Assembly: GCA_951406725.2 (NCBI GenBank)
Contig: OX597828.1
Coordinates: forward strand, 59,768,001 to 59,832,000
Direction of reading: 5' to 3'
DNA length: 64,000 nucleotides
DNA from: Octopus vulgaris
Taxonomy: Eukaryota
A program made the translations under genes and the position numbers. How positions within the stretch are numbered: the first letter of the stretch is position 1; the number at the start of each line of letters is the position of its first letter. Shown one piece after another: positions 2,457 through 42,088 of the stretch. The notes beneath the pieces are model-generated. The model had not been told where the DNA came from, made no database searches, and saw only the letters and a program-made list of their open reading frames with translations.

Positions 2457-2524
<68 letters not shown>

Positions 2525-2700: not shown

Positions 2701-2745
<45 letters not shown>

Positions 2746-3050
2746 GAGAGAGACATAGGTATATATTGATATATTGACTGATATATGTATATACATATAG
2801 ATATTTAAACATATATGGGATGGCCATAATGGGACATCCGACTCACTAGAGAGAGCAGTTAAACTCCAAAAAATCGTAAAATCTATGTCATGTCTGAATA
2901 ATATATTGGAAAGTTACCTCCTCTTGCTCATTATAATTTATTAAAAGTAATATAATTGTATGTAAGGAAAGTAACTCTGGAAGATGTTATCTAGTTATCT
3001 CCCTTCCGAGATGTATGTGTTTGTGTATTTATATGTCCTATATAGCGACG

Positions 3051-3085
<35 letters not shown>

Positions 3086-4100
3086 ATATATACATATACA
3101 CATACAGATATACGTGAATATACCAACACACGTATCTGTAGTATCTAAAACAAAAAAGAAACTGTAAGGGATGGAATGGGAGTTCTTTCCGTTTTATTAA
3201 GAAAACTTGCATCTGTATGTGTGATAGTACGTGCGTGCGTGCATTCTCGTGTGCCCTTCAAGTGCAAACAAACATACACAGACACACACACACACACACA
3301 CACACACACATTTAAACAAGTGTACGACGAGATTCTGTCAGTTTTCTTCCACTAAATCCCATCACAAGGATTAGCTAGGCCCTGGGCTACAATTGTAGAC
3401 AATTGCAGAAGATGACAGGCAGTGGGAATGAACCCGAAACCAGTTTCCCTCTACAAACTCCACTAAGAATACATTGGTCGGCCCTAGGCTAAAGTCGAAT
3501 ACACTTGCCGAAGATGCAACGCTGTTGGTTTGAACTCAGCACATTGCGGTTCATGAGCAATCATTATCACAGAAATGTGCGCACAAACAGACACAGAATG
3601 TCACGGTTTAAAGGTCAACATGTTTAAAACATAAATAGCTACGAGTTTGCGTATATGCATGTATCTATGTGCCTGGGTGCGGACGTGTGTTTCCAGAATG
3701 TCTCAGTTTTAAGGTCAACATATTTAAAACAAATAGGTACGAGATTGCGTCTTTGCATGTATCTATATTCGTGGGTGCGGACGTGTGAGTGTTTGTGCGT
3801 GTGTGAGCACAGTCCACCTATACCCAAGCTGGTTGCATTGTCTCATAAAAACCAGCCGTGAAAGTTCCGGACCACATTAATGAACTCATTTGCATACAAA
3901 CAATTAGGTCTCGCCTTGAACTTGTCCGGTTAACAAACAGTAGTGTCTGAATGGGAATTAGCTTGCTTACCTAACAAATGTTATCGAGTTCAGTCCCACT
4001 GGGTGGCATGTTGGGCAAATGTCTTCTACTATAGTCTCGGGCCGACCAAAGCCTTGTGAGTGGATTTGGGAGACGGAAACTAAAAGAAGACTGTCGTATG

Positions 4101-4145
<45 letters not shown>

Positions 4146-4339
4146 GTAGCAGTAAGAGTGGCTACGTAGCTTGCTTTCCAAACACGGTGTTTCTGGTTCT
4201 GTCCAACTACGTGGCCCCATGGGCAAGTGTCTTCCAATATAGCCTCGGACAGACCAACGTTTCTGAGTAGATTTGGTACACGGAAACAGAAAGTAGCCCG
4301 TGGTATATAGATAGGTGTGTGTATATATATATATATATA

Positions 4340-5781
4340 CATCAGCAAAGTCATGGAACGAATAGTCCGTAAGAAACTAATCATGTTCCTTGAAGAAAAT
4401 GACTTACTGTCTGACACCCAGCATGGATTTCGACCAGGTAGAGGCTGCCTAACACAGCTCCTGCAACACTATGACTGGGTGTTGAAACAGCTACTAAATG
4501 GCTCAAATGTGGATGTAATATATCTTGACTTTGCAAAAGCCTTTGATAAAGTCGACCATGGTATGATCTGTCACAAACTGCGTGGTCTCGGCATAGGCGG
4601 GAAACTTGGAGAGTGGCTGCACAACTTCCTAAAAGACAGAAAACAGGCAGTTGTGAGCAATGGAGCCACCTCCAGGGAAACGCAAATAACAAGCGGTGTC
4701 CCACAGGGCACTGTCTTGGGGCCACTGATGTTCATAGTGGCCCTTTCAGACATGCCTTCAGTTGCTACGATGACCACCCTTGCTAGCTATGCAGATGACA
4801 CAAAAGTCTCCCACGCAATACAAAACCCTGAAAATATTGCGCATCTGCAACATGAGCTGGACACAATATACAGGTGGGCTGAGGACAACAACATGCAGTT
4901 TAATGCAGGTAAGTTCCAGGCCCTGCGCTACTGGCACACAAAGGTAAATGATGTGAAGACTGGATACACTGGCCCAGGAAGAATTGCAATCCCTGAGTCA
5001 AAATCAGTGCGTGACCTGGGCATTGACATGAGCAATGATGCATCTTTCCAAATGCATATTGCTAATCTGGTGATAAAATGCAGACGGCTAGCTGGATGGA
5101 TTCTCCGAACTTTCAGAACAAGAGAGAAGGAGACACTGATGGTCCTATGGAAAACATTTGTCCTCAGCCGCTTGGACTACTGCTCCCAACTTTGGTCACC
5201 ACACAATATAAAACAAACAGCAGAACTTGAAGCAACTCAGAGAAGCTACACAAAGAAAATCGTCTCAATGCAAAATGTCAGCTACTGGGAAAGACTGAAG
5301 GTATTAAACCTCTTCTCCCTGGAGCGGAGGCGGGAGAGATATGCAGTGATATACATCTGGAAAATCCTGGAGGGTCTTGTCCCAAACTTTGGCATTCAAA
5401 GTTACTCCAACCGCAGAACGGGGCACCGCTGCGTGGTGCCAAGGATTCCAACATCACCATCAAAATACAGGTCCAGATACTGCAACAGCTTGGGTTTCAG
5501 AGGACCACAGCTCTTTAACATCCTCCCTAAATGCCTGAGAGACTTACATGGTGTGGATGTGGGTTTCTTTAAAACTAAACTGGATCTCTTCTTGTTGGGA
5601 GTCCCAGATGAACCTACCTCACGACAGGAGACACGGATGCGGGCAGCAGCATCAAACTCCCTTGTTGATCAGGTGCCACGTATCAGAGGTGGATTCACAA
5701 ACTAGTGTAGCTCATTCAGCGGTGGTGCCCCAGCATGGCCGCGGCCTTCGGGCTAAAACATTTTTAAGGATTTAAGGATTT
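4340..5781 (+). mobile_element. 5'-truncated CR1-like non-LTR retrotransposon with uninterrupted RT ORF (to 5705), inserted in a (TA)n tract
   Basis: Contains QHGFRPGRGC, YLDFAKAFDKVDH, GVPQGTVLGP, YADDTK and SLERRR motifs, a short 3' UTR and a (TTTAAGGA)2 tail. Empty sites occur at ~2700-2750 and ~29270-29310. Confidence 0.92.
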
Positions 5782-7139
5782 ATATATATATATATATATA
5801 CATACATATATATAGAGAGAGAGACATAGGTATGTATTGACAGATATAAACATATATGGGATGGCCATAATGGGACATCCGACTCACTAGAGAGAGCAGT
5901 TAAACTCCAAAAAATCGTAAAATCTATGTCATGTCTGAATAATATATTCGAAAGTTACTTCCTCTTGCTCATTATAATTTATTAAAAGTAATATAAATAT
6001 ATGTAAGGAAAGTAACTCTGGAAGATGTTATCTAGTTATCTCTCTTCCGAGAGTTAACTTCCCTGCAATTTTTTTTATTGTTAAATTATAATATTCAAGG
6101 GAAGTAACTGTAGAAGATACTTTGTAGTTATCTCCCTTAAGTATGTAGTTATCGTAATATACGCTTTGTCGCTCTTAGACACTTTCAGGTATTTCACTGT
6201 TACCATGGTGGAGCACCGCATTTAGTGAAGGAAATCAACCCCAGGAATTATTCTTTGTATGCCTATTACTTAATGTATAGGTCTCTTTTGCAGAACCGAT
6301 AAGTTACGGGGACGTAATGTTCGATATACTGATTTAGTAGGTATTTATTTATTGTAAGAATTTCAATTATCATAAATTATGGGCTAGGAAAAATACTGAA
6401 AACTTTTTTGATAGACCTATTGGGGCTCCTTGTGTGTGTGGGACTGTTTTTATTTATGTGAGTGTGGGTATTTTCATTTCAGTGTTTGTGTGTTTGTATG
6501 AGTGTTTTTATTTCTGTGTGCACGAGTGTGTGAGCGACTGTGTGTTTCTATTTGTGTGTGTGCGACACTTACAACTACAACAAACACATTGACCATTTCT
6601 AAGATACCCACATTTGAAATCACTAACTACTAAATCAAAATAAGTTCAACTTATTCCACCTTTAGTGGCTTTAGATGTTGCTCATATTTTTCCCATGTGT
6701 CGTCAATGTATTAATTTCACAAGTGGATGATAGAAATTCTAATACTGGCGTGGAGGGAGCTGATATTCTAACTGCGAGTGCAAAGCACCCAATGCCCCTC
6801 TACATTCTGAATAAATTGAATGTTTATGCTAGTTAGGGTTTTATGTGTGAATGTGTAACTGCGTTTTCATTTCTGTGTGTGACTATTTTCATTTCTATTT
6901 GTGTGTGTGCATGTGTAGGTATGTAACTGTTTTCATTTCAGTGTTTGTGTTTGTGTGAATGTTTTTATTTCTGTGTATACGTGTGTGTGAGCGTCTGTTT
7001 GTATGCGACAATTACAGCTACAACATACACTTTAAGCATCTCTAAGATACCCACATTTGCAGATCCCTAAGTTCTAAATGAAAAGAAGTTCAATTGCACC
7101 TTTAGTGACTCTAGATTTGCGAGTGTTAAGCACCCCGTA

Positions 7140-7380
7140 TCTACATACCTGGATCGGCCATAATTAGCCTCATTCGGAGATCTCTCGGGTGTGGAATATT
7201 TATGACTATAGAAGTTAACTTGTTACAGGTTTTGTTTTTGGCTCAACTTTTGTAGATTTTGGGAAGTCCATAGATGTTACTGGCTTTGCAGTCAAATCTA
7301 ATCAAGCAATTTGTCTCCTTTTTTGTTAAACCGTGTTGGAACTGGTGGATAAGAGTAGACAGTTTGGTCATTATCTTCGA
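7140..7380 (-). pseudogene. Penelope-like RT N-terminal fragment, repeated at ~11640, 14450, 15615 (partial), 30740, 34800 and 35900
   Basis: The copy at 34800-35037 translates as MTKLSTLIHQFQQDLTEKETNCLTRFHCKASNIYELPKIYKS*AINKTC...PRDIRMRPIMANP, resembling the PLE FYGLPKIHK...LRPII motif. Confidence 0.7.
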
Positions 7381-7529
7381 TTGACTGTAGTTGATGCTTT
7401 TAACCGATGCTGGTGTGTTTTACTCCTTGTATTTTAGCGATTCGGCAAAAGAGAACAAGTTAGAATAAATACTAGGCTTACAAAGAATATGTGCTGCGGA
7501 CGATGTGCTCGATTAAAGGCGGCGCTCCA

Positions 7530-7584
<55 letters not shown>

Positions 7585-10500
7585 CAGATATACGTATATA
7601 TACCCACACACGCATATATATATAATCTAAAACAAAAAAGAAACTGGATTATGTCCGAAGAGTAGTATTAGATAACATTATTACTTTATATATTCGTGGG
7701 GTGTAGTGAAATATAAATGATCAGCTAGTCAATGTTTATTTGTTAAAGGTACCAGCAGATTACTTGGATGTGTATGTGTCTCTGTTGGTGTGCGCATGGT
7801 CGTGTCTCCTTTCGCTATTACAGAAATTACAATATGAAACGTATTATATGACGTTTAGGAGATATTTTCAGCTATCTCCCTAGTGAACAGGTTATAGACT
7901 TTGGTCGCTATTTACTCTTTTACTCTCATTTACTTGTTTCAATCATTTAACTGGCCATGCTGAAACAACTCCTTCAGTCGAGCATATCGACCCCAGGACT
8001 TATTCTTTGTAGGCCTAGTTCTTATTCTAACAGTCTCTTTCGCTGAACCTCTAAGTTATGGGGTCCTAGACATATATACACACACACACACATGTATATA
8101 AAAGTACGTAGTCGCACACACAGATATGGAAATACACACATCTAACCCTAACCCAGTTTCATCTCCCTTTGGCATTTAAACTTAAATATAAAAATGAATC
8201 TCAAACCAAGGAAAGTAACTCCCTCTACATCCCTTACTTGACAAGAGTTACATCCGTTGATTGATACTAATACAATTTAACATTAGGATACGTAAATAGT
8301 GTTTGAATAATAATAGGCTGGAATGGATTAGGGTTAGGTTTAGGTTTAGAAGACAATTGGACAAGATGCGAGGCAGTGGGAATGAAACTGAACCCATGTG
8401 GTTCGTAGGCAAGCTACTTACCACATAGCCATTCCTGCGCCGATATTCATATATACGACGGGCTTCTTTCAGTTTCCCTCTACCAACCCTACTCAGAATA
8501 CATTGGTCGGCCCGGGGGTATAGTTGAATACACTTGCCGAAGGTGCAACGCTGTTGGATTGAACCCAGCACATTGAGGTTGGTGAGCAAACACTCTCACA
8601 CACATGCGCGAGCGCAAACAGACACAGAGTTGAAAGCACACATATTGGCTAACCCAGACACTCATGAAATTTCTTCAGAGTGTCACGGTTTTAAAGTCAA
8701 CTTATTGAAAACATAAAATAGCTTTGCATGTATCTATGTGCATGAGTGCGGAAGTGTGGGTATTTGTGCGTGTGTGAGCACAGTCCACACATACCCAAGG
8801 TTGTCACATCGGCTAATGTGACCCAACCGCGAAAGTCTGTTTTACCCAGACATACACATACAGATATACGTGTATATACCCACGCACGTATATGTAGTGT
8901 CTAAAACAAAAAAGAAACTAAGGGATGGAACGGGAGTTCTTTCCGTTTTATTAAGAAAACTTGCATCTGTATGTGTGATAGTACGTGCGTGCATTCTCGT
9001 GTGCCCTTCGAGTGCGAACAAACACACACACACACACGCACACATTTAAACATATATACGATGGTATTTTTTCAGTTTCCTTCCACTAAATCCAATCACA
9101 AGGATTAGGTCGGCCTTGGGGTACAGTAGTAGACAATTGCATAAGATGACAGGCAGTATGAGTGAACAGCAAACCATGTGGTTCGCAAGCGAACTACTTT
9201 ACAACATAGCCATTGCTACGCCGATATTCATTTATACGACGGATTCTTTCAGTTTCCCTCTACACACTCCACTCAGAATACTTTGGTCGGCCCAAGGCTA
9301 TAGTTGAATACACTTGCCGAAGGTGCAACGCTGTTGGTTTGAACTCATTGCATTGCGTTTCGTGATCAATCATTCTCACAGAAATGCGCGCACAGACACA
9401 GAATATCACGGTTTAAAGGTCAACATGTTTAAAACATAAATAGCTACGAGATTGCGTCTTTGCATGTATCTATATTCGTGAGTGCGGACGTGTGGGTGTT
9501 TGTGCGTGTGTGAGCACAGTCCACCCATACCCAAATTTGTTGCATTGTCTTGTGGGACCCAGCCGCGAAAGTTCCGGACCCCATTAATGAACTCATTTGC
9601 ATACAAACAATTAGGGCTCACCTTGAACTTGTCCAGTTAACAAACAGTAGTGTCCGAATGGGAATTAGCTTGCTTACCTAACAAATGTTTTCGAGTTCTG
9701 TCCCACTGGGTGGCACGTTGGGCAAATGTCTTCTACTGGCATATAGACTCGAGGCGATAATAACTATGTCTCGAGTCTATATGATATAACTATTCCAAAT
9801 CCACCACTCTCGCGTGGTTTTCTCCGCAGTAAATATAAACTAGATAGATATTTATATATATGTTTCTGTTTCCCCAAAACCGCTTGACAACCGAAGCTGG
9901 TATTTTTTCACTCTAGTAACTTCGGGAAAAGACGACCAATAAATAAATTCTAGACTGTCATAGAGTTAGTCCTAGTGTCGATTTGCTCTAGAAAATGCTG
10001 TGCTCCAGCATGGGCACAGTGAAATGACTAAATAAGGAAAAGCGTAAAAGTGCGTGTGTCACGTCTGCATAATATATTCTAGAGCTACTTCCCTAGGAAA
10101 TTATAATTTAATAAAAGTAAAATAATTATATGTAAGGAAAGTAACTCTGGAAGATGTTATCTAGTTATCTCCCTTTCGAGAGTTAAGTTCCTTGCATTTT
10201 ATTTTATTATTGTTAAATTTTAATATTTAAGGGAAGGTAACTGTAGAAGACACTCTGTAATCTCCCTAAAGTATGTAGTTATTGTAATATAGACTTTGTC
10301 GCTCTTTGACTCTTTCAGTTATTTCACTGTGACCATGGTGGAGCACCGCCTTTAGTCAAGCAAATCAACCCCAGCAATTATTCTTTGTATGCCTATTACT
10401 TAATGTATAGGTCTCTTTTGCAGAACCGCTAAGTTACGGAGACGTAATGTTCGATGTACTGATTTAGTAGGTATTTATTTACTGTAAGAACTTCAATTAT

Positions 10501-12030
10501 CATAAATTATGGGCTAGGAAAAATACTAGAAACTTTTTTGATATATTTATTGGGGCTCCTTGTGTGTGTGGGACTGTTTTTATTTATGTGAGTGCGGGTA
10601 TTTTCATTTCAGTGTTTGTGTGTGTGTTTGTGTGTTTTTATTTCTGTGTGAGCGACTGAGTGTTTCTATTTGTTTGTGTGTGTGCGACACAAATACAACA
10701 AACACTTTGACCATTTCTAAGATACCCACATTTGAAATCACTAACTACTAAATCAAAATAAGTTCAACTTATTCCACCTTTAGTGGCTTTAGATGTTGCT
10801 CATATTTTTCCCATGTGTCGTCAATGTATTAATTTCACAAGTGGATGATAGAAATTCTAATACTGGCCTGGAGGGAGCTGATATTCTAACTGCGAGTGCA
10901 AAGCACCCAATGCCCCTCTACATTCTGAATAAATTGAATGTTTATGCTAGTTAGGGTTTTATGTGTGCATGTGTAACTGCGTTTTCATTTCTGTGTGTGA
11001 CTATTTTCATTTCTATTTGTGTGTGTGCGACACTTACAACTACAACAAACACATTGACCATTTGTAAGATACCCACATTTGAGATCACTAACTACTAAAT
11101 CAAAATAAGTTCAATTTATTGCACCTTTAGTGACTTCAGATGTTGCTCATATTTTTCCCATGTGTCGTCAATGTATTAATTTCACAAGTGGATGACAGAA
11201 ATTCTAATACTGGCGTGGAGGGAGCTGACATTCTAACTGCGAGTGCAAAGCACCTAATACCCCTCTACATTCTGAATAAATTGTATGTTTGTGCTAGTTA
11301 GGGTTTTATGTGTGAATGTGTAACTGCGTTTTCATTTCTGTGTGTGGGTGCGTATGTTTGTGTGTGACTATTTTCATTTCTATTTGTGTGTGTGCATGTG
11401 TAGGTATGTAACTGTTTTCATTTCAGTGTTTGTGTTTGTGTGAATGTTTTTATTTCTGTGTATACGTGTGTGTGAGCGTATGTTTGTATGCGACAATTAC
11501 AGCTACAACAAATACTTTAAGCATCTCTAAGATACCCACATTTGCAGATCCATAAGGTCTAAATGAAAAGAAGTTCAATTTATTGCACCTTTAGCGACTT
11601 CAGATTTGCGAGTGTTAATCACCCAATGCCTCCCGTATCTACATACCTGGATCGGCCATTATTGGCCTCATTCGGAGATCTCTCGGGTGTGGAATATTTA
11701 TGACTATAGAAGTTAACTTGTTACAGGTTTTGTTTATGGCTTAACTTTTGTAGATTTTGGGAAGTTCATAGATGTTACTGGCTTTGCAGTGAAATCTAGT
11801 CAAGCAATTTGAGTCCTTTTTTGTTAAACCGTGTTGGAACTGGTGGATAAGAGTAGACAGTTTGGTCATTATCTTCGATTGACTGTAGTTGTTGATGCTT
11901 TTAACCGATGCTGGTGTGTTTTACTCCCTATATTTTAGCGGTTCGGCAAAAGAGAACAAGTTAGAATAAATACTAGGCTTACAAAGAATATGTGCTGCGG
12001 ACGATGTGCTCGATTAAAGGCGGCGCTCCA

Positions 12031-12078
<48 letters not shown>

Positions 12079-12570
12079 ACACATACAGATATACGTATAT
12101 ATACCCACACACGCATATATATATAATCTAAAACAAAAAAGAAACTGGATTATGTCCGAAGAGTAGTACTAGATAACATTATTACTTTATATATTCGTGG
12201 GGTGTAGTGAAATATAAATGATCAGCTAGTCAATGTTTATTTGTTAAAGGTACCAGCAGATTACTTGGATGTGTATGTGTCTCTGTTGGTGTGCGCATGG
12301 TCGTGTCTCCTTTCGCTATTACAGAAATTACAATATGAAACGTATTATATGACGTTTAGGAGATATTTTCAGCTATCTCCCTAGTGAACAGGTTATAGAC
12401 TTTGGTCGCTATTTACTCTTTTACTCTCATTTACTTGTTTCAATAATTTAACTGGCCATGCTGAAACAACACCTTCAGTCGAGCATATCGACCCCAGGAC
12501 TTATTATTTGTAGGCCTAGTTCCTATTCTAACAGTCTCTTCCGCTGAACCTCTAAGTTATGGGGTCCTAG

Positions 12571-12639
<69 letters not shown>

Positions 12640-14838
12640 TATAAAAGTACGTAGTCGCACACATCTAACCCTAACCCAGTTTCATCTCCCTTTGGCATTT
12701 AAACTTAAATATAAAAATGAATCTCAAACCAAGGAAAGTAACTCCCTCTACATCTCTTACTTGACAAGAGTTACATCCGTTGATTGATACTAATATAATT
12801 TAACATTAAGATACGTAAATAGTGTTTGAATAATAATAGGCTGGAATGGATTAGGGTTAGATTTAGGTTTAGAAGACAATTGGACAAGATGCGAGGCAGT
12901 GGGAATGAAACTGAAACCATGTGGTTCGTAGGCAAACTACTTACCACATAGCCATTCCTGCGCCGATATTCATATATACGACGGGCTTCTTTCAGTTTCC
13001 CTCTACCAGCCCTACTCAGAATACGGTCGACCCGGGGGTATAGTTGAATACACTTGCCGAAGGTGCCACGCTGTTGGATTGAACCCAGCACATTGAGGTT
13101 GGTGAGCAAACACTCTCACACATGCGCGAGCGCAAACAGACACAGAGATGAAAGCACACATATTGGCTGACCCAGACACACATAAAATTTCTTCAGAGTG
13201 TCACGGTTTTAAAGTCAACTTATTGAAAACATAAAATAGCTTTGCATGTATCTATGTGCATGAGTGCGGAAGAGTGGGTATTTGTGCGTGTGTGAGCACA
13301 GTCCACACATACCCAAGGTTGTCGCATCGGCTAATGTGACCCACATGCGAAAGTCTGTTTTACCCAGACATACACATACAGATATACGTGTATATACCGA
13401 CGCACGTATATGTAGTGTCTAAAACAAAAAAACTGTAAGGGATGGAACGGGAGTTCTTTCCGTTTTATTAAGAAAACTTGCATCTGTATGTGTGATAGTA
13501 CGTGCGTGCATTCTCGTGTGCCCTTCCAGTGCGAACACACACACACACACACACACATTTAAACATATATACGATGGTATTTTTTCAGTTTCCTTCCTTT
13601 CATTTCAGTGTTTGTGTGTGTGTGTGAGAGGCTTTTTTTTCTGTGTGCGCGAGTGTGTGAGCGACTGAGTGTTTCTATTTGTTTGTGTGTGTGCGACACT
13701 TACAAATGCGAGAAGCACTTTGACCATTTGTAAGATACCCACATTTGAGATCACTAACTACTAAATCAAAATAAGTTCAATTTATTGCACCTTTAGTGAC
13801 TTGAGATGTTGCTCATATTTTTCCCATGTGTCGACAATGTATTAATTTCACAAGTGGATAAAAGAAATTCTCATACTGGCGTGGAGGGGGCTGATATTCT
13901 AACTGCGAGTTCAAAGCACCCAATGCCCCTTTACATTCTGAATAAATTGTATGTTTGTGCTAGTTAGGGTTAGGGTTTTATGTGTGAGTGTGTAACTGCG
14001 TTTTCATTTCTGTGTGTGGGTGCGTATATTTGTGTGTGTCTGTGTTTGTGCATGTGTAGGTATGTAACTGTTTTCATTTCTGTGTTTGTCCAAGAAATAG
14101 CTGTGTATTTTCATTTGTGTGTTTGTCTTTGTGCGTATGTGAGTGTTTTTGTGAGAATTTTTTTTTCAGTGTTTGTGTGCGTGGGACTTTTTATATGTGT
14201 GTGTTGGTATTTTCATTTCAGTGTTTTTGTTTGTGTGAATGTTTTTATTTTTGTGTGTACGTGTGTGTGAGCGACTGTGTTTTTATTCGTTTGTGTGTGT
14301 GCGACAATTACAGCTACAACAAACACTTTAAGCATCTCAAAGATACCCACATTTGCAGATCCCTAAGTTCTAAATGAAAAGAAGTTCAATTTATTGCACC
14401 TTTAGCGACTTCAGATTTGCGAGTGTTAAGCACCCAATGCCTCCCGTATCTACATACCTGTATTGGCCATAATTGGCCTCATTCGGATATCTCTCGGGTG
14501 TGGAATATTTATAACTATAGAAGTTAACTTGTTACAGGTTTTGTTTATGGCTTAACTTTTGTAGATTTTGGGAAGTTCATAGATGTTACTAGCTTTGTAG
14601 TGAAATCTAGTCAAGCAATTTGTCTCCTTTTTTGTTAAATCCTGTTGGAACTGGTGGATCAGAGTAGACAGTTTGGTCATTACCTTCGAACGACTGTAGC
14701 TGTTGATGTTTTTACCGATACAGGTGTGTTTTACTCCCTGTATTTTAGCGGTTCGGCAAAAGAGAACAAGTTAGAATATATACTAGGCTTACAAAGAAGT
14801 GCTGCGGACGATGTGATCGACTGAAGGCGGCGCTCCAG

Positions 14839-14875
<37 letters not shown>

Positions 14876-15860: not shown

Positions 15861-15906
<46 letters not shown>

Positions 15907-17202: not shown

Positions 17203-17289
17203 TATACATAGCGCGGTAGTGGTGAGATATGACAGCAAAGAAAAGCATACATTCACTCTCTGCATGCAATTATACTCGGAAAGTTCGTG

Positions 17290-18636: not shown

Positions 18637-18670
<34 letters not shown>

Positions 18671-18793
18671 ATATGTCAGATATATATAAACTTAGATATT
18701 TTTCGACCAAAGATTGGTCCAGACCATGTCTAACTTAATTGCACCACCTGATAGGATTATTCGACTCCTGTTTAAGTCAAGTTTTGTTTAAGT

Positions 18794-22835: not shown

Positions 22836-22846
22836 GATATTCATAC

Positions 22847-27977: not shown

Positions 27978-28024
<47 letters not shown>

Positions 28025-28183
28025 CGAATATACGTGAATATACCAACACACGTATATGTAGTATCTAAAACAAAAAAGAAACTGTAAGGGATGGAATGGG
28101 AGTTCATTCCGTTTTATTAAGAAAACTTGCATCTGTATGTGTGATAGTACGTGCGTGCATTCTCGTGTGCCCTTCGAGTGCGA

Positions 28184-28216
<33 letters not shown>

Positions 28217-31151
28217 TTTAAACATATATACGACGAGATTCTATCAGTTTCCTTCCACTAAATCCCATCACAAGGATTAGCTAGGCCCTGGGCTACAATA
28301 GTAGACAATTGCAGAAGATGACAGGCAGTGGGAGTGAACCCGAAACCATGTGGTTCGTAAGCAAACTACTTACAACAGCCATTCCTACGTCGATATTCAT
28401 ATATACGACGGCTTCTTTCAGTTTCCCTCTACAAACTCCACTCAGAATACATTGGTCGGCCCTAGGCTATAGTCGAATACACTTGCCGAAGGTGCAACGC
28501 TGTTGGTTTGAACTTGGCACATTGCGGTTCATGAGCAATCATTCTCACAGAAATGTGCGCACAAACAGACACAGAATGTCACGGTTTAAAGGTCAACATG
28601 TTTAAAACATAAATAGCTACGAGTTTGCGTATATGCATGTATCTATGTGCCTGGGTGCGGACGTGTGTTTCCAGAATGTCTCAGTTTTAAGGTCAACATA
28701 TTTAAAACAAATAGGTACGAGATTGCGTCTTTGCATGTATCTATATTCGTGGGTGCGGACGTGTGAGTGTTTGTGCGTGTGTGAGCACAGTCCACCTATA
28801 CCCAAGCTGGTTGCATTGTCTCATAAGAACCAGCCGTGAAAGTTCCGGACCACATTAATGAACTCATTTGCATACAAACAATTAGTTCTCGCCTTGAACT
28901 TGTCCGGTTAACAAACAGTAGTGTCTGAATGGGAATTAGCTTGCTTACCTAACAAATGTTTTCGAGTTCAGTCCCACTGGGTGGCATGTTGGGCAAATGT
29001 CTTCTACTATAGTCTCGGGCCAACCAAAGCCTTGTGAGTGGATTTGGGTGGCGGAAACTAAAAGAAGACTGTCGTATGTATATATATATATATATATATA
29101 TGTAGCAGTAAGAGTGGCTACGTAGCTTGCTTTCCAAACACGGTGTTTCTGGTTCTGTCCAACTACGTGGCCCCATGGGCAAGTGTCTTCCAATATAACC
29201 TCGGACAGACCAACGTTTCTGAGTAGATTTGGTACACGGAAACAGAAAGTAGCCCGTGGTATATAGATAGGTATATATATATCTATATATATAAAGAGAG
29301 AGAGAGAGAGACATAAGTATATATTGACAGATGTATGTATATACGTATAGATATTTAAGCATATATGGGATGGCCATAATGGGACATCCGACTCACTAGA
29401 GAGAGCAGTTAAACTCCAAAAAATCGTAAAATCTATGTCATGTCTGAATAATATATTCGAAAGTTACTTCCTCTTGCTCATTATAATTTATTAAAAGTAA
29501 TATAAATATATGTAAGGAAAGTAACTCTGGAAGATGTTATCTAGTTATCTCCCTTCCGAGAGTTAATTTCCTTAAATATTTTTTATTGTTAAATTATAAT
29601 ATTCAAGGGAAGTAACTGTAGAAGATACTTTGTAGTTATGAGCCTTAAGTATGTAGTTATCGTAATATACGCTTTGTCGCTCTTAGACTCTTTCAGTTAT
29701 TTCACTGTGACCATGGTGGAGCACCGCCTTTAGTGAAGCAAATCAACCCCAGGAATTATTCTTTGTATGCCTATTACTTAATGTATAGGTCTCTTTTGCA
29801 GAACCGATAAGTTACGGGGACGTACAACCCCAGGAATTATTCTTTGTATGCCTATTACTTAATGTATAGGTCTCTTTTGCAGAACCGATAAGTTACGGGG
29901 ACGTAATGTTCGATATACTGATTTAGTAGGTATTTATTTATCGTAAGAATTTCAATTATCATAAATTATGGGCTAGGAAAAATACTAGAAACTTTTTTGA
30001 TAGACCTATTGGGGCTCCTTGTGTGTGTGGGACTGTTTTTATTTATGTGAGTGTGGGTATTTTCATTTCAGTGTTTGTGTGTGTGTGTGAGTGTTTCTGT
30101 GTGCACGAGTGTGTGAGCGACTGAGTGTTTCTATTTGTGTGTTGTGCGACACTTACAACTACAACAAACACATTGACCATTTGTAAGATACCCACATTTG
30201 AGATCACTAACTACTAAATCAAAATAAGTTCAATTTATTGCACCTTTAGTGGCTTCAGATGTTGCTCATATTTTTCCCATGTGTCGTCAATGTATTAATT
30301 TCACAAGTGGATGACAGAAATTCTAATACTGGCATGGAGGGAGCTGATATTCTAACTGCGAGTGCAAAGCACCCAATGCCCCTCTACATTTTGAATAAAT
30401 TGTATGTTTATGCTAGTTAGGGTTTTATGTGTGGATGTGTAACTGCGTTTTCATTTCTGTGTGTGGGTGCGTATGTTTGTGTGTGACTATTTTCATTTCT
30501 ATTCGTGTGTGTGCATGTGTAGGTATGTAACTGTTTTCATTTCAGTGTTTGTGTTTGTGTGAATGTTTTTATTTCTGTGTATACGTGTGTGTGAGCGTCT
30601 GTTTGTATGCGACAATTACAGCTACAACATACACTTTAAGCATCTCTAAGATACCCACATTTGCAGATCCCTAAGTTCTAAATGAAAAGAAGTTCAATTG
30701 CACCTTTGGTGACTCCAGATTTGCGAGTGTTAAGCACCCCGTATCTACATACCTGGATCGGCCATAATTGGCCTCATTCTGAGATCTCTCGGGTGTGGAA
30801 TATTTATGACTATAGAAGTTAACTTGTTACAGGTTTTGTTTTTGGCTCAACTTTTGTAGATTTTGGGAAGTCCATAGATGTTACTGGCTTTGCAGTCAAA
30901 TCTAGTCAAGCAATTTGTCTCCTTTTTTGTTAAACCGTGTTGGAACTGGTGGATAAGAGTAGACAGTTTGGTCATTATCTTCGATTGACTGTAGTTGTTG
31001 ATGCTTTTAACCGATGCTGGTGTGTTTTACTCGCTATATTTTAGCGGTTCGGCAAAAGAGAACAAGTTAGAATAAATACTAGGCTTACAAAGAATATGTG
31101 CTGCGGACGATGTGCTCGATTAAAGGCGGCGCTCCAGTATATATATATATA

Positions 31152-31192
<41 letters not shown>

Positions 31193-33809
31193 CAGATATA
31201 CGTATATATACCCACACACGCATATATATATAATCTAAAACAAAAAAGAAACTGGATTATGTCCGAAGAGTAGTACTAGATAACATTATTACTTTATATA
31301 TTCGTGGGGTGTAGTGAAATATAAATGATCAGCTAGTCAATGTTTATTTGTTAAAGGTACCAGCAGATTACTTGGATGTGTATGTGTCTCTGTTGGTGTG
31401 CGCATGGTCGTGTCTCCTTTCGCTATTACAGAAATTACAATATGAAACGTATTATATGACGTTTAGGAGATATTTTCAGCTATCTCCCTAGTGAACAGGT
31501 TAAATAATTTTGTCGCTATTTACTCTTTTACTCTCATTTACTTGTTTCAATAATTTAACTGGCCATGCTGAAACAACACCTTCAGTCGAGCATATCGACC
31601 CCAGGACTTATTCTTTGTAGGCCTAGTTCTTATTCTAACAGTCTCTTTCGCTGAACCTCTAAGTTATGGGGTCCTAGACATATATACACACACACACACA
31701 TGTATATAAAAGTACGTAGTCGCACACACAAATGGAAATACACACATCTAACCCTAACCCAGTTTTATCTCCCTTTGGCATTTAAACTTAAATATAAAAA
31801 TGAATCTCAAACCAAGGAAAGTAACTCCCTCTACATCTCTTACTTGACAAGAGTTACATCCGTTGATTGATACTAATATAATTTAACATTAAGATACGTA
31901 AATAGTGTTTGAATAATAATAGGCTGGAATGGATTAGGGTTAGATTTAGGTTTAGAAGACAATTGGACAAGATGCGAGGCAGTGGGAATGAAACTGAACC
32001 CATGTGGTTCGTAGGCAAACTACTTACCACATAGCCTTTCCTGCGCCGATATTCATATATACGACGGGATTCTTTCAGTTTCCCTCTACCAACCCTACTC
32101 AGAATACATTGGTCGGCCCGGGGGTATAGTTGAATACACTTGCCGAAGGTGCCACGCTGTTGGATTGAACCCAGCACATTGAGGTTGGTGAGCAAACACT
32201 CTCACACATGCGCGAGCGCAAACAGACACAGAGATGAAAGCACACATATTGGCTGACCCAGACACACATAAAATTTCTTCAGAGTGTCACGGTTTTAAAG
32301 TCAACTTATTGAAAACATAAAATAGCTTTGCATGTATCTATGTGCATGAGTGCGGAAGTGTGGGTATTTGTGCGTGTGTGAGCACAGTCCACACATACCC
32401 AAGGTTGTCGCATCGGCTAATGTGACCCAACCGCGAAAGTCTGTTTTACCCAGACATACACATACAGATATACGTGTATATACCCATGCACGTATTTGTA
32501 GTGTCTAAAACAAAAAGTAAACTAAGGGATGGAACGGGAGTTCTTTCCGTTTTATTAAGAAAACTTGCATCTGTATGTGTGATAGTACGTGCGTGCATTC
32601 TCGTGTGCCCTTCGAGTGCGAACAAACACACACACGCACACATTTAAACATATATACGATGGTATTTTTTCATTTTCCTTCCACTAAATCCAATCACAAG
32701 GATTAGGTCGGCCTTGGGGTACAGTAGTAGACAATTGCATAAGATGACAGGCAGTGGGAGTGAACAGCAAACCATGTGGTTCGCAAGCAAACTACTTTAC
32801 AACATAGCCATTGCTACGCCGATATTCATATATACGACGGCTTCTTTCAGTTTCCCTCTACACACTCCACTCAGAATACTTTGGTCGGCCCAAGGCTATA
32901 GTTGAATACACTTGCCGAAGGTGCAACGCTGTTGGTTTGAACTCATTGCATTGCGTTTCGTGAGCAATCATTGTCACAGAAATGCGTGCACAGACACAGA
33001 ATATCACGGTTTAAAGGTCATGTTTAAAACATAAATAGCTACGAGTTTGCATACATGCATGTCTCTATGTGCATGGTTGCGGACGTGTGTTTCCAGAATG
33101 TCGCAGTTTTAAGGTCAACTTAAGAGAGAGAGAGAGAGAGAGAGACATAAGTATCTATTGACAGATTTATGTATATACATTTAGATATTTAAACATGTAA
33201 GGGATGGCCATAATGGGACATCCGACTCACTAGAGAGATCAGTTAATCTCCAAAATAGCGTAAAAGATTGTCATGTTGAATAATATTTTCGAGAGTTATT
33301 TTCCCTGGATATTATAAGTTAAATAAAAGTAGTAAAATTATATGTAAGGAACGTAACTCTGGAAGATGTTATCTAGTTATCTCCCTTCCGAGAGTTAATT
33401 TCCTTAAATATTATTTTATTATTGTTAAATTTTAATATCTAAGGGAAGTAACTGTAGAAGATACTTCGTAGTTATTTCCCTTAAGTACGTAGTTATCGTA
33501 ATATAGACTTTTTCGCTCTTTGACTCTTTCATGGTGGAGCACCGCCTTTAGTCAAACAAATCAACCCCAGTAATTATTCTTTGTATGCCTATTACATAAC
33601 GTATAGGTCTCTTTTGCAGAACCGATAAGTTACGGGGACGTAATGTTCGATGTACTGATTTAGTAGGTATTTATTTACTGTTAGATCTTCAATTATCATA
33701 CATTATGGGCTAGGAAAATATTAGAAACTTTTTTGATATACATATTAGGGCTCCTTGTGTGTGTGGGACTGTTTTTATTTATGTGAGTGTGGGTATTTTC
33801 ATTTCAGTG

Positions 33810-33852
<43 letters not shown>

Positions 33853-34249
33853 TGAGTGCTTTTTTCTGTGTGCGCGAGTGTGTGAGCGACTGAGTGTTTC
33901 TATTTGTTTGTGTGTATGCGACACTTACAAATGCAACAAGCACTTTGACCATTTCTAAGATACCCACATTTGAGATCAATAAGTACTTATTCAAAATAAG
34001 TTCAATTTGTTGCACCTTTAGTGACTTGAGATGTTGCTCATATTTTTCCCATGTGTCGTCAATGTATTAATTTCACAAGTGGATGACAGAAATTCTAATA
34101 CTGGCGTGGAGGGGGCTGATATTCTAACTGCGAGTTCAAAGCACCCATTGCCTCTTTACTTTCTGAATAAATTGTATGTTTGTGCTAGTTACGGTTAGGG
34201 TTTTGTGTGAGTGTGTAACTGCGTTTTCATTTCTGTGTGTGGGTGCTTA

Positions 34250-34284
<35 letters not shown>

Positions 34285-35041
34285 ATGTTAGTGTGTGAGA
34301 GTTTGGATGTGTTACCGTATTTTCCATTTCTATTTGTTTGTGTCTGTGTTTGTGCATGTGTAGGTATGTAACTGATTTCATTTCTGTGTTTGTCCGCGTG
34401 TTTGAGTGTGTGAATATGTATCTGTATTTTTATTTGTGTGTTTGTCTTTGTGCGTATGTGAGTGTTTTTGTGAGAATTTTTTTTCAGTGTTTGTGTGCGT
34501 GGGACTTTTTATATGTGTGTGTGTTGCTATTTTCATTTCAGTGTCTGTGTTTGTGTGAATGTTTTTATTTTTGTGTGTACGTGTGTGTGAGCGACTGTTT
34601 TTATTCGTTTTATTTCTGTGTATACGTGTGTGTGAGCGGATGTTTGTATGCGACAATTACAGCTACAACAAACACTTTAAGCATCTCCAAGATACCCACA
34701 TTTGCAGATCCCTAAGTTCTAAATGAAAAGAAGTTCAATTTATTGCACCTTTAGCGACTTCAGATTTGCGAGTGTTAAGCATCCAATGCCTCCCGTATCT
34801 ACATACCTGGATTGGCCATAATTGGCCTCATTCGGATATCTCTCGGGTGTGGAATATTTATAACTATAGAAGTTAACTTGTTACAGGTTTTGTTTATGGC
34901 TTAACTTTTGTAGATTTTGGGAAGTTCATAGATGTTACTAGCTTTGCAGTGAAATCTAGTCAAGCAATTTGTCTCCTTTTCTGTTAAATCCTGTTGGAAC
35001 TGGTGGATCAGAGTAGACAGTTTGGTCATTACCTTCGAACA

Positions 35042-35115
<74 letters not shown>

Positions 35116-38100
35116 TGTTTATACATATAGATATTTATATATATGTACATGCGTGTATGATTCGATGTCCCCAAAACCGCTTGACAAGCGATGCCGGTGA
35201 TTTTTACACTCCATCAACTTATCCGTTCGGGAAAAGAAGACCAACAGAATAAATACTAGACTGATGTAGGATAAAATTCTTTGTGTCGATTTGCTCAAGA
35301 AAAGGATGTGCTCCAGCATGGGCACGGTGAAATGACTTAACCAGGAAATGAGTAAAAGTAAATGTAAGGGAAGGAAGATTTTTCTAGTTATCTCCCTTTC
35401 CAGAGTTACTCCCCTTTCTTTTTATTAGTAATTAAATTATAATATGCAAGGTAAGTAACTCTACAAAGGAAGATAACTCCAAAATCTTCCAGGGTTACTT
35501 CCCTCACATATACTGATAATTGTTAAATATACTAGGCAAGGGATGTAACTCTAGAAAGGGAGATAATTACAAAATCTTCCAGAGTTACTTCCCTTACATG
35601 TATCCGTCTTTGTGTACGTGAAACTGTTTTTATTTTTGTGTGTGTGAGTGTCGGTAGTTTCATTTCAGTGTTTGTGTTTGTGTGATTGTTTTTATTTCTG
35701 TGTGTATGTGTGTGTGAACCTATGTGCGTTTTTATCCGTTTGTGTCTGTGCGACATTTACAGCTACAACAAACACTTTAAGCATCTCCAAGATACCCACA
35801 TTTGCAGATCCCTAAGTTCTAAATGAAAAGAAGTTCAATTTATTACACCTTTAGCGACTTCAGATTTGTGAGTATTAAGCATCCAATGCCTCCCGTATCT
35901 ACATACCTGGATTGGCCATAATTGGCCTCATTCGGATATCTCTCGGGTGTGGAATATTTATAGCTTAACTTTTGTAGATTTTGGGAAGTTCATAGATGTT
36001 ACTGGCTTTGCAGTGAAATCTAGTCAAGCAATTTGTCTGGTTTTTTGTTTAATCGTGTTGGAACTGGTGGATAAGAGTAGACAGTTTGGTCATTACCTTC
36101 GAACGACTGTAGCTGTTTTCCTCCCTGTATTTTAGCGGTTCGGCAAAAGAGAATAAGTTAGAATAAAATACTAGGCTTACAAAGAAGTGCTGCGGACGAT
36201 GTGATCGACTAAAGGCGGCGCTCCAGTATTTATATATATATATGTATATATACTTACAGATATACGTGTATATACCCACATACGCATATATACTATATAA
36301 AACAAAAAAGAAACTTGATTATGTCATTATTACTTTATTACAGATATTACAACATGAAACGTATTATATGACGTTAGGGAAGTAACTCTAGGAGATATTT
36401 TCTGCGATCTCCCTAGTGAACAGGTCATGGACTTTTCTCGTTATTTACTCTTTTACTCTCATTTACTTGTTTCAGTCATTTGACTGTGGCCATGTTGGAG
36501 CACGACCTTTAGTCGAGCATATCGACCCCAGGACTTATTCATTGTAGGCCTAGTGCTTATTCTATCAGTCTCTTTCGCTGAACCTCTAAGTTATGGGGAC
36601 GTGAACAGACTAGCATCCGTTGTGTAGCAATGTTTGGGAACAAAGACACACACGCACACATAAACATATATATGACTGGAGTTTTCCCGTTTCCTTCCAC
36701 CAAATCCAATCACAAGACTTTGGTCGGCTCGTGGCTATAGTAGATTTTTCAAACGATGCTGGTGTGTTTTCCTCCCTGTATTTCAGCGGCTCGGCAGAAA
36801 AGAATAAGAATAAATACTAGGCTTAGAAAAAATAAGTGCTGCTGACGATGTACTCGAAGAAGATAGATTGGTATATATATATATATATATATATCTAAGT
36901 AATTAATTAATAAGGGTGAGAGAATTAGATACTAATTTAATAGTATATCTATTCTACACCAAGTGGCCTAGTGCTCCGAGAAACCTGGATTATTATAATA
37001 TTTTATAATATATTATAATATTTTTACAAAATAAATATAAGAGAGTGGTCACATAGTGACCACTCTCTTATATTTATATATCTAAGTATATATTTATAAA
37101 GATATATCAGATATATATAAACTTAGATAAACTTAGATGTGTTTCGACCAAAGATTGGTCCAGGCCATGTCTAACTTAATAGCACCACCTGATAGGATTA
37201 TTCGAATCCTGGTTAAGTCAAGTTTTGTTCAAGTAGTGAGTTCTTGTTGGGTGAGTTGTATCCAGTTTTGTTCAAGTAGTGACTTCTTGTTTGGTGCGTT
37301 GTATCCAATTATGGGTGGCTTATCTGGTATTCTTTGAAGGAATCTATCCAGACTCTGTTTAAAGTTGATGGGATCCTTTTCCTCTTTGATCTCTCTCGGG
37401 GAAAATGTTCAATAGGGCAGGGCCTGTTAAGGAAAAGAAATTATGTTGTAGTGTACATGTATGTTGTGATCTTGAATTGGGCAGGGGACGTATAGCACGT
37501 GGTCCAAGTCTTGGATGAACCTTGAAGCTAATGTTTAGGTCGTTTGGGCATAGTTGGCGGTATATTTTCCACATCGTACAAATGATGTACCGCTCACGGC
37601 GACGCTGGAGGTAGTAAAGTTTCAAGGCTTTAAGGCGATCCCAATAATTGAGAGAAGCCATGCCTTCAATTCGTTTAGTGAATGCCCTCTGGGGTGACTC
37701 AATTCTGGAGATGTTTAGTCTTGTGTGAGGAGACCACAGTGGGCAGCAGTATTCAAGTTGTGGCCGTACAAAGGAGGAAAAAAGTGGTATGATGACACCT
37801 TGTTCTCTGGACCGGAAAGTTCTTAAGATCCAGGAACTCATCCTACGAGCTATATCGACCTTCTTGTTGATGTGTGCACTCCAACTGAGATCGTCATCAA
37901 CAATTACACCCAGTTCTCTGATATTGTTAGAGGCTGTGAGCGGTTCCCCTGAAGGAAGAGAGTATGGCTGTTTTAGTGAGGAGTTTCTTCCAAAATGCAT
38001 CAGCTCAAATTTTCCCTCGTTTCGTTGCATTTTGTTTCTGTTTGCCCATTGACTCACAGCATATAGATCAGACTGGAGTTGAGGTCTGCTTCTTCATTGA

Positions 38101-39530
38101 CGATTTGCTGGAGCTTGGTGTCATCTGCAAATATTTTCACTTTGCAGTAATGTACGACACTGGAAAGGTCGTTTATGTAGATTATGAAGAGTAGCGGACC
38201 CAATAGATTATGAAGAGTAGCGGACCCAAGACAGTCCTCTGGGGGACACCGCTGGTGACTTTTGCTGGGCTTGAGTGGACTCCATCAACTACAACATGTG
38301 TTGTATTCGCCAGGAAATACTTGATCCAGTGTAGAACTTTTCCACGGATTCCAACATTTGCCAATTTTGAGAGTAGGATATTATGGTCTACCCTGTCGAA
38401 CGCTTTACTGAAGTCAAGATATATGACATCAGAGTTCGAACCTGTTCCCAAGGCTTTGAGTACATCTTCAATGTGGTGTAAGAGCTGTGTTAGACAGTCC
38501 CTGCCACAGCGAACGCCATGCTGATTGGCATATAGGAGTTTCTGGGTCTCCAGGAAGTCAGCCATCCTTGATCTTAAAACCCTTTCAAACACTTTGATGA
38601 TGTGGGAGGTGAGTGAGATTGGGCGATAGTTGAGTGCGAGGGATCTGTTTCCCTGTTTGAAAACCGGGATGACTGACTGGGATAGAAACTGTTTTGGTAT
38701 ATACCTGCATCTAACGAATTTCTCCAGAGGTTGGTCAGTGGGACTGCAAGTTGGTGTTTACATTCCTTCAGGAGACTAACGGGGATTCTATCAGGGCCTA
38801 CAGCAGAGTAGTATTTGACCTCATTTATTGCTGCTATGATGTCAGAGGGAGTGAAGGTTATGTCTGCAATTTTGTGTTGGGAGTCATCTTCGTTCGCTTC
38901 TCTTACGTCAATATCAGTGGGAGCACTAAAGACAGCAGTATTGTTTCTGCAATATATATAGAGCAACATGTATATACATATAGATATTTATATATATGTA
39001 TATATGTGTGTGTTTCGATGGCCCGAAAACCGTTTCACAAGCGATGCCGGTGATTTTTACACTCCATCAACCTATCCGTTCGGGAAAAGAAGACCAACAG
39101 AATAAATACTAGACTGACGTAGATAAAAGTACTAGTGTCGATTTGCTCTAGAAAAGGCTGTGCTCCAGCATGGGCACAGTGAAATGACTAAACAAGGAAA
39201 GGAGTAAAAGTGTATGCGTTACGTCTGAACATTATATTGTAGAGTTAATCAGCTTCCATAACATTTTGATAATAGTCGTTATTTAATGAAATGTAAGGGA
39301 GGCAACTTTTGAATTTTATTTTAGTTATCTCCCTTTCTAGAGTTACTCCCCTCGAACATTTCAATTTAATAATACATAATAGTAATTTTATTAGATGTAA
39401 GGGAGGTAACTCTGGAAGATCTTTTAGTTATCTTTCTTTCTAGAGTTACTCCCCTCGAACATTTCAATTTAATAATACATAATAGTAATTTAATTAGATG
39501 TATGGGAGGTAACTCTGGAAGATCTTTTAG
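27352..39530. repeat. Large composite repeat unit, copy 2
   Basis: Largely colinear with copy 1, but lacks the 4340-5781 LINE, the internal ~4.5-kb duplication and the 16571-18640 insertion cluster. Confidence 0.85.
37225..38950 (-). pseudogene. Decayed CR1-like LINE RT, copy 2
   Basis: Contains YLDFSKAFDRVDH, SGVPQRTVLGP and RPQLEYCCPLWSP. A 26-bp tandem duplication at ~38178-38228 breaks the frame. It is a paralog of 18794-20450. Confidence 0.9.
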
Positions 39531-39927
39531 TTAGGGTTGGGTTAGGGTTGGGGTTGGGATTGGGGTTGGGGTTGGGTTAGGGTTGGGTTAGGGTTTAGGG
39601 TTAGGGGTTAGGGTTAGGGTTTTAGGGTTAGGGTTTTAGGGTTGGGTTAGGGTTAGGGTTAGGGTTGGGGTTGGGTTGGGGTTAGGGTTGGGTTTAGGGG
39701 TTAGGGTTAGGGTTTGGGGTTAGGGTTAGGGTTAGGGGTTGGGGTTAGGGTTGGGTTGGGGTTAGGGGTTAGGGTTTGGTATATACCTGCATCTAACGAA
39801 TTTCTCCAGAGGTTGGTCAGTGGGACTGCAAGTTGGTGTTTACATTCCTTCAAGAGACTAACGGTTAGGGTTAGGGTTGGGGTTAGGGTTGGGGTTAGGG
39901 TTAGGGTTGGGGTTAGGGTTAGGGTTA
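39531..39927 (+). repeat. Interstitial telomeric tract (TTAGGG with TTGGG/TTGGGG/TTAGGGG variants) interrupted by a 90-bp LINE fragment
   Basis: Read directly from the sequence; the G-rich strand is plus throughout. Confidence 0.95.
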
Positions 39928-41444: not shown

Positions 41445-41486
<42 letters not shown>

Positions 41487-42080: not shown

Positions 42081-42088
42081 AAACATGA

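What the first reader, a model, noticed from the sequence alone, without database searches (positions are those of the whole stretch)
3020..39927. Tandem 12-18 kb composite units, each ending in the same IR block plus a TTAGGG tract (Y'-like subtelomeric array)
Seen: two colinear units run SINE/PLE mosaic, then a dead CR1 LINE, then the inverted-motif block, then a degenerate TTAGGG tract (21036 and 39531), all in the same polarity. Known: yeast Y' elements and fly telomeric retroelement arrays are tandem subtelomeric units, and Y' copies are separated by short telomere tracts and spread by recombination. Inference: this is a non-coding telomere-associated unit copied onto chromosome ends, with the internal tract marking a former end. 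I know of no description of such a unit in cephalopods.
Basis: partly seen in the sequence, partly recalled or inferred. Interest (0 to 1): 0.8.

Follow-up and report, generated by a model that had tools for sequence, protein, structure and literature searches.

The report
Octopus chromosome end rebuilt in steps
Two related blocks of broken transposon DNA, each followed by telomere-type repeats, likely form the last 40 kb of an octopus chromosome arm that was extended and re-healed in steps and that the assembly likely glued to the middle of an unrelated gene: a known kind of chromosome-end patchwork, not a new mobile element.

Summary
Partly confirmed. Two colinear blocks exist (3011-21038 and 27939-39530; 87-99.5% identical by 400-bp window), each ending in LINE fragment, hairpin block and G-rich telomere-type tract. 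They are not one discrete Y'-like unit. They lie 6.3 kb of satellite apart, are built of smaller repeated modules, carry no helicase, and meet their tracts at different points. Only 2 of 8 hairpin blocks have a tract.

New here: (1) a 90-bp copy (89/90) of LINE DNA from 1.08 kb upstream sits inside the distal tract, and that tract starts on a 4-nt GTTA match; both fit telomere healing. (2) The DNA right of 39927 is the inside of a USP9/24-like gene whose first ~1,800 codons are missing from the window. (3) In 4 of 4 public runs, single-copy contigs continue 183-356 letters left of 39933, further than the window's structure allows (110).

So the distal tract is probably a real telomere base mis-joined in assembly, and the proximal tract a relic end. 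Closest known: human subtelomeric duplicons with internal (TTAGGG)n islands, and BIR-extended ends in C. elegans. Spread to other ends could not be tested. Interest 0.33.

The parts
1629..3010 (+).
   Evidence: matches 28230-29561 at 84-89%
3011..21038 (+). Proximal block (unit 1): mosaic of repeated modules of transposon debris
4341..5780 (+). 5'-truncated LINE with a 454-codon open RT frame, inserted in a (TA)n run, present in unit 1 only and opposite in orientation to the shared LINE
   Evidence: RVT_1 E=7e-25; empty site in unit 2
7144..7371 (-). One of six RT fragments of Penelope-like look (others end at 11869, 14680, 30975, 35029, 36093); PLE label recalled from motifs
   Evidence: 72% identical to Octopus sinensis LOC118762276, an RVT_1 protein
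11010..13597 (+). Internal duplication in unit 1 (copy of 6545-9084)
   Evidence: 94% identity
16570..18638 (.). Unit-1-only segment: dispersed element of Helitron-like look (16570-17210; label recalled; sibling at 56896-57211) that carries the same inverted motif pair, and a mariner transposase fragment (17421-17717, -)
   Evidence: HTH_48 E=2e-19
18690..20455 (-). Broken, 5'-truncated LINE RT fragment, copy 1 (CR1-group label recalled, not tested)
   Evidence: frame change against the intact + copy; RVT_1
20750..21023 (.). Hairpin (inverted-motif) block with its normal end
   Evidence: 6 motif copies; DNA fold z = -7.5; 78-86% like the internal block 35360-35602
21039..21093 (+). Tract 1: short degenerate telomere-type tract (TTAGGG, TTGGGG, TCGGGG, CTAGGG), likely relic of a former end
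21092..22833 (+). 34-bp satellite, 52 copies, joined directly to tract 1
22847..27351 (+). 15-bp satellite, ~300 copies, G-rich on the same strand as the tracts, TTCAGGG core
   Evidence: 1477 G vs 529 C; TTCAGGG 98 times
27346..27917 (+). Start of the distal block: 17-bp triple repeat taken from a hairpin-block end, then a copy of 6124-6664
27939..39530 (+). Distal block (unit 2)
37131..38949 (-). Broken LINE RT fragment, copy 2; holds the donor (38693-38782) of the tract insert
39272..39533 (.). Rearranged hairpin block: inverted tail, 103-bp duplication, cut short where the tract begins on GTTA
39531..39774 (+). Tract 2a: degenerate telomere repeats (24 TTAGGG, also TTGGG, TTGGGG)
39775..39864 (+). 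90-bp copy of LINE DNA from 1.08 kb upstream (89/90 to unit 2, 82/90 to unit 1), 2-5 nt match at the left junction, GG at the right
39865..39927 (+). Tract 2b: regular TTAGGG/TTGGGG hexamers; its end is the likely assembly join
39928..64000 (+). Interior of a USP9/24-like gene: exons from 52493 on, none upstream; the intron hosts intronless RING (42089-44536, -) and Tfb4 (49283-50422, -) genes

Best explanation
Bases 1-39927 hold two related mosaic blocks of transposon debris, two satellites and two telomere-type tracts, and are likely the tip of an octopus chromosome arm that grew by steps, with the second tract likely the base of the real telomere and the genes to its right likely joined on by the assembly. 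Steps, all inferred from junction sequence: (1) unit 1 once ended the chromosome and tract 1 is what remains of that telomere; (2) the 34-bp and 15-bp satellites were added beyond it; (3) break-induced replication or ectopic exchange copied a sibling subtelomeric block (unit 2) onto the end, entering at a hairpin-block motif; (4) that end broke inside its hairpin block, folded back, and telomerase primed on GTTA; (5) the new 3' end briefly switched template to the LINE 1.08 kb upstream, copied 90 nt, and telomerase resumed on GG. The blocks would be passive cargo that supplies homology, not an element with machinery of its own.
For: Shown: colinear blocks with kb-scale private insertions; same-strand tracts above chance; junction microhomologies and the 89/90 insert; hairpin folding z = -7.5 and -3.6; cumulative GC skew climbs to 4.1 by 40 kb and is flat after. 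Join: 6 of 6 full-length USP9/24 homologs first hit the window at residue 1735-1862, with nothing upstream at E<=1, although the upstream part is conserved (52% over 700 aa). In 4 of 4 runs single-copy-depth contigs run 348, 183, 356 and 352 letters left of 39933, whereas the duplicated 31-mers at 39775-39822 should break such contigs within 110 letters. Known: TTAGGG is the reported octopod telomere motif (PMC13218726, PMC6160780, passages); internal variant tracts at duplicon boundaries pointing to the end are the human pattern (PMC2323237, passages).
Against: No genome or spanning read was available, so the terminal position and the adjacency of the two blocks are unproven. The letters by which the contigs run on were not shown; the argument rests on contig lengths and on k=31 assembly, recalled for Logan. 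The 90-bp insert is about one short read long and sits at the suspected join, so gap filling or a chimeric read could have made it. Six of 8 hairpin blocks show no tract, so hairpin fragility is not shown. Variable G and T run lengths in tract 2a may be partly long-read error.
Confidence: 0.6

Rival explanations
1. The join at 39927/8 is real in this animal or lineage: an eroded telomere was repaired by a short templated patch and then by break-induced copying of (or fusion to) an internal gene-bearing segment starting inside the USP9/24 intron, which makes a new subtelomere as on C. elegans CB4856 chromosome VR.
For: The order short tract, templated piece flanked by telomere repeats, copied internal segment is the one described for CB4856 VR (PMC6581047, passages); remaining tracts of 352-1363 bp before such insertions are reported in humans (PMC11707537, passages). 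The window has no N gap at the join.
Against: 4 of 4 other samples from 4 studies show unbranched single-copy contigs across this point, so it would have to be private or rare. Depth to the right is not consistently raised. Without a second intact copy the gene would be cut.
Confidence: 0.17
2. One reading: a discrete Y'-like non-coding unit that is copied onto many chromosome ends and stacked with telomere tracts between copies.
For: Two colinear copies in one polarity, each followed by a tract. Several unit-2 windows have no partner above 95% in the window, which may point to further siblings elsewhere.
Against: No shared ends; 41% of unit 1 lies outside the shared chain; different tract junctions; 6.3 kb of satellite between copies; no helicase or intact mobility gene in 91 frames; 87-99.5% patchy identity.
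Confidence: 0.12
3. The tandem arrangement itself is an assembly product: two different chromosome ends (or very divergent alleles) were stitched together through the 4.5-kb 15-bp satellite.
For: Long satellites are typical mis-join points (general knowledge), and this window probably holds one false join already.
Against: Ordinary alleles are unlikely: only 2 of 31 windows reach 99% against 99-100% for unique DNA among samples. Tract 1 is short, degenerate and joined to a satellite, so it is internal whatever lies beyond the satellites.
Confidence: 0.11

Closest known systems
Human subtelomeric duplicons with internal (TTAGGG)n-like islands (PMC2323237, passages read)
   Same: Duplicated blocks >1 kb at about 90-98% identity in one orientation; short degenerate internal tract with TTGGGG-type variants at a block boundary, pointing to the end; higher divergence next to the tract.
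   Different: Here the blocks are almost pure transposon debris with internal module repeats; copies on other chromosomes not tested; animal is a cephalopod.
New subtelomere formation by BIR and TALT in C. elegans (PMC6581047, PMC8034613, passages read); human BIR insertions behind a short telomere remnant (PMC11707537, passages read)
   Same: A short remnant tract is followed by added duplicated DNA; a non-telomeric piece is flanked by telomere repeats on both sides, in the direction of the end.
   Different: The 90-bp donor is not flanked by telomere repeats (only 2-5 nt match), occurs once in the tract, and is not shown to be amplified or to protect ends.
Yeast Y' elements (PMC13177704, Significance and Introduction read)
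   Same: Tandem same-polarity subtelomeric copies with an internal telomere-type tract; likely spread by recombination.
   Different: No helicase frame, no fixed length class or ends, satellites between copies, patchy identity.
Telomeric retroelement arrays (Drosophila HeT-A/TART, EN-minus Penelope-like elements; PMC5537684 and PMC8557442 seen as search listings only, details recalled)
   Same: The shared LINE and the six Penelope-like fragments lie with their 5' side toward the inferred end.
   Different: All are short broken fragments multiplied by DNA duplication; no tract abuts their 5' ends (about 580 bp intervene for the LINE); the only long open RT frame is in the opposite orientation.

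Membership tests
Y' element | Helicase-encoding ORF | tested here: not met
   91 stop-to-stop frames of 70 aa or more in 1-40000 (satellite frames left out): only RVT_1 and a mariner HTH pass Pfam cut-offs
Y' element | Discrete element of fixed length class with shared ends | tested here: not met
   18.0 vs 11.6 kb, different left flanks and tract junctions
Y' element | [quoted passage not shown] | tested here: inconclusive
   a 55-bp tract is present but is followed by 6.3 kb of satellites
Y' element | Present at many chromosome ends; carries an ARS; amplified in telomerase-null survivors | not testable with these tools
   no genome held
Subtelomeric duplicon patchwork (human type) | Duplicated blocks >1 kb and >90% identical, same orientation | tested here: met
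Subtelomeric duplicon patchwork (human type) | Internal degenerate (TTAGGG)n-like island at a duplicon boundary, G-strand toward the end | tested here: met
   tract 1 ends unit 1 and has the same strand as tract 2
Subtelomeric duplicon patchwork (human type) | Located next to a terminal telomere | tested here: inconclusive
   indirect support; no spanning read
Subtelomeric duplicon patchwork (human type) | Copies shared among non-homologous ends | not testable with these tools
   no genome held
TALT (template for ALT) | Non-telomeric piece flanked by telomere repeats on both sides at an end | tested here: met
   39775-39864 between tracts 2a and 2b
TALT (template for ALT) | Internal donor itself flanked by telomeric repeats | tested here: not met
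   donor 38693-38782 lies inside LINE sequence
TALT (template for ALT) | Tandem amplification at several ends | tested here: inconclusive
   one copy in the tract in this window; rest of genome not held
Telomeric retrotransposon array (HeT-A/TART, EN-minus PLE) | Intact RT elements head-to-tail with 5' end distal (recalled) | tested here: not met
   minus-strand copies are broken fragments; the only long open RT frame is on the + strand
Telomeric retrotransposon array (HeT-A/TART, EN-minus PLE) | 5'-truncated ends capped directly by telomere repeats (recalled) | tested here: not met
   about 580 bp of SINE-like and hairpin DNA lie between LINE and tract in both units
CR1 LINE / Penelope-like / Helitron / SINE labels of the debris | Placement by family-specific profile or tree | not tested
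   only RVT_1 matches were obtained; the finer labels are recalled from motifs

The most novel reading that the evidence does not exclude
The window records, base by base, telomere crisis and repair in a wild octopus germ line: a Helitron-derived hairpin block acts as a recurring break-and-heal site, a shared debris block is passed among chromosome ends, a TALT-like 90-bp patch was copied into the telomere within roughly the last million years, and the eroded end then captured a gene-bearing internal segment by break-induced replication to form a new subtelomere.
Probability: 0.15. Interest if true: 0.68.

Novelty: new member of a known kind. Interest (0 to 1): 0.33.

Why it matters
Cephalopod chromosome ends are barely described: five literature searches gave no account of octopus subtelomere structure, and a 2026 O. 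vulgaris repeat annotation does not use the word telomere in its main text. The window gives a candidate real end, probes for finding the others, and junctions that fit telomerase healing and template switching. It also flags a probable mis-join through a USP9/24-like gene. If the join were real, it would be a natural BIR-made subtelomere outside worms and humans.

Tried and rejected
Whole-genome search: no genome held. Rfam at E<=1 over 1-42000: 84 matches, none at gathering score, mostly microsatellite or hairpin hits to miRNA models; no ribozyme. Earlier findings: 3 of 4 look-ups empty, one unrelated phage hit sharing 3 of 106 words. Metagenome scans for the hairpin end and the 34-bp satellite: 0 matches each. 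The frame at 829-1155, GIY-YIG-like by recall, found no Pfam family or homolog, so that label is unconfirmed. P0001 has no solved relative. A tree of five Penelope-like fragments (one short copy dropped, a second short hit at 15616 excluded) pairs 7134 with 30738 (98.7%) and gives 14440/34789 97.8%, in line with block duplication, but deeper nodes are weak. Rejected: alleles of one locus; retroelement-built telomere; head-to-head fusion (no CCCTAA array; best minus-strand score 13). Loose-end letters at the join were not shown. No supplements were read; assembly papers in subscription journals are outside the library.
Full report
SETTING. No genome is held for this window, so the work rests on the window, protein searches, four public runs and papers. 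The animal is likely an octopus: a repeated RT fragment is 72% identical to an Octopus sinensis protein, and exons on the right are 65-100% identical to an Argonauta hians USP protein. TTAGGG is the one telomere motif reported for cephalopods (PMC13218726 and PMC6160780, passages).

OBSERVATION. Self-alignment shows two colinear blocks, 3011-21038 and 27939-39530. A hand-picked chain of nine alignments covers 10,622 of 11,592 bp of the distal block and 10,553 of 18,028 bp of the proximal one. Best-match identity, substitutions only, over 31 windows of 400 bp runs from 87 to 99.5%; 2 of 31 reach 99%. Unit 1 alone has a 1.4-kb plus-strand LINE in a (TA)n run, an internal duplication (6545-9084 vs 11010-13597, 94%), and a 2-kb segment with a dispersed element and a mariner fragment. 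Both blocks are stacks of smaller modules: six RT fragments of Penelope-like look and eight hairpin blocks with 3 or more copies of a 15-bp inverted motif. The motif pair also occurs in a dispersed element at 16570 and 56896, of Helitron-like look by recall. Between the blocks lie a 34-bp and a 15-bp satellite, 6.3 kb in all. Both tracts beat chance (scores 28 and 56 against at most 12 in 30 shuffles), but tract 1 is 55 bp with 2 perfect hexamers and tract 2 about 400 bp with 31.

THE ENDS DIFFER. Homology stops at 20874/39374. Unit 1 keeps the normal end of the hairpin block, as in the internal copy at 35360-35602, before tract 1. Unit 2 has an inverted tail and a 103-bp duplication, and is cut where the tract begins. 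The earlier 103-bp copy shows that GTTA belongs to the flank and is followed by TCT there, but by GGG at the tract. A 4-nt match to the telomere register is what telomerase priming at a break would leave (established knowledge, recalled; the step is inferred). So the two tracts were not copied together with one junction. Only 2 of 8 hairpin blocks carry a tract, which limits the idea that the hairpin (fold z = -7.5 and -3.6) seeds telomeres.

AN INSERT IN THE TRACT. Bases 39775-39864 match 38693-38782 at 89 of 90 and the unit-1 LINE at 82 of 90, with a 2-5 nt match on the left and GG before TTAGGG on the right. I infer a brief template switch of a free telomeric 3' end, followed by telomerase. 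It resembles C. elegans TALT in being flanked by telomere repeats (PMC8034613, passages), but its donor is not so flanked and it occurs once. It is about one short read long and next to the suspected join, so an artefact is not excluded; I put it near 55% real.

THE POLARITY PUZZLE. Both tracts point right, toward genes. These are intronless RING and Tfb4 genes on the minus strand and a USP9/24-like gene on the plus strand. With ten partial homologs, up to nine successive exons are found from 52493 to 63999, and no upstream exon (one weak hit in a satellite, E=0.07). Six full-length homologs first match at residue 1735-1862, with nothing earlier at E<=1, though that part is conserved (52% over 700 aa between two homologs). 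So 39928-52492 is intron, and the repeat block stands where the gene's 5' part should follow. Four runs from four studies, laid on 39775-43000, cover the unique DNA at 0-1% difference. Laid pieces begin at 39933 because the tool lays nothing on the repeat beside it, but the single-copy-depth contigs there run on leftwards by 348, 183, 356 and 352 letters (length minus last aligned position; orientation checked on record 17). In the window, 48 31-mers starting at 39775-39822 also occur at the donor, which should break a k=31 contig (k recalled) within 110 letters. The run-on letters were not shown, so this is inference: these four samples carry other DNA there. Cumulative GC skew also rises to 4.1 by 40 kb and then flattens. 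The simplest reading is a contig that ends at a real telomere base, joined without a gap to an unrelated contig.

MECHANISM (confidence 0.6). Unit 1 with tract 1 was an earlier end. Satellites were added, then a sibling block was copied on by BIR or ectopic exchange, entering at a 17-bp repeat from a hairpin-block end (27346). The new end broke in its hairpin block, was healed by telomerase, and took up the 90-bp patch. The sequence facts are shown; every event is inferred. Using the scale in PMC13282606 (passage: JC 0.09 = 25 My), 2-8% pairwise divergence is roughly 3-11 My. Rivals: a real private BIR or fusion event at 39927/8, as on CB4856 VR (PMC6581047, passages; 0.17); a discrete Y'-like unit (0.12); two ends stitched through the satellite (0.11).

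COMPARISON. It works like human subtelomeric duplicons, where internal degenerate tracts sit at duplicon boundaries and point to the end (PMC2323237, passages), and like BIR additions behind short telomere remnants (PMC11707537, passages). It fails Y' membership on helicase and discrete ends (PMC13177704, Significance and Introduction). It fails as a retroelement-built telomere (features recalled; PMC5537684 and PMC8557442 seen only as listings).

VERDICT. A real repeat patchwork, likely a chromosome tip, of a known kind. Searches found no description for cephalopods, but the library lacks most subscription journals and no supplements were read. Interest 0.33; the boldest reading (p 0.15) would merit 0.68.

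Noticed in passing
window 39928-64000: Two intronless minus-strand genes (RING protein of Topors-like look, 815-codon frame; Tfb4/GTF2H3, 379-codon frame) appear nested in one intron (>12.5 kb) of a plus-strand USP9/24-like gene.
   Followed up: partly
window 22847-27351: The 15-bp satellite is G-rich on the telomere strand, has a TTCAGGG core (98 times), and by eye resembles the 15-bp inverted motif of the hairpin block; it may derive from a telomere variant or from that motif.
   Followed up: partly
window 8130-8350, 12658-12873, 31736-31956: A small palindromic module with CCCTAA-type repeats on the left and TTAGGG-type repeats on the right around a shortened inverted-motif pair; three copies at about 98%.
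   Followed up: no
window 6833, 10951, 11298, 13964, 30417, 34195: One or two TTAGGG at the same place in each copy of a repeated module; may be an older telomere-addition scar multiplied with the module.
   Followed up: no
window 4341-5780: Young-looking LINE with an open 454-codon RT frame inserted into a (TA)n run after the two blocks diverged.
   Followed up: partly
window 829-1155 (-): Frame of GIY-YIG-like look (recalled), possibly the 3' part of a Penelope-like element left of the array; no Pfam or homolog hit.
   Followed up: partly
window 48537-48960: 21-bp minisatellite, about 20 copies, between the RING and Tfb4 genes.
   Followed up: no
window 29744-29905 and 38178-38229: Perfect (100%) tandem duplications of 81 bp and 26 bp in unit 2 only: recent slippage or assembly error.
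   Followed up: no
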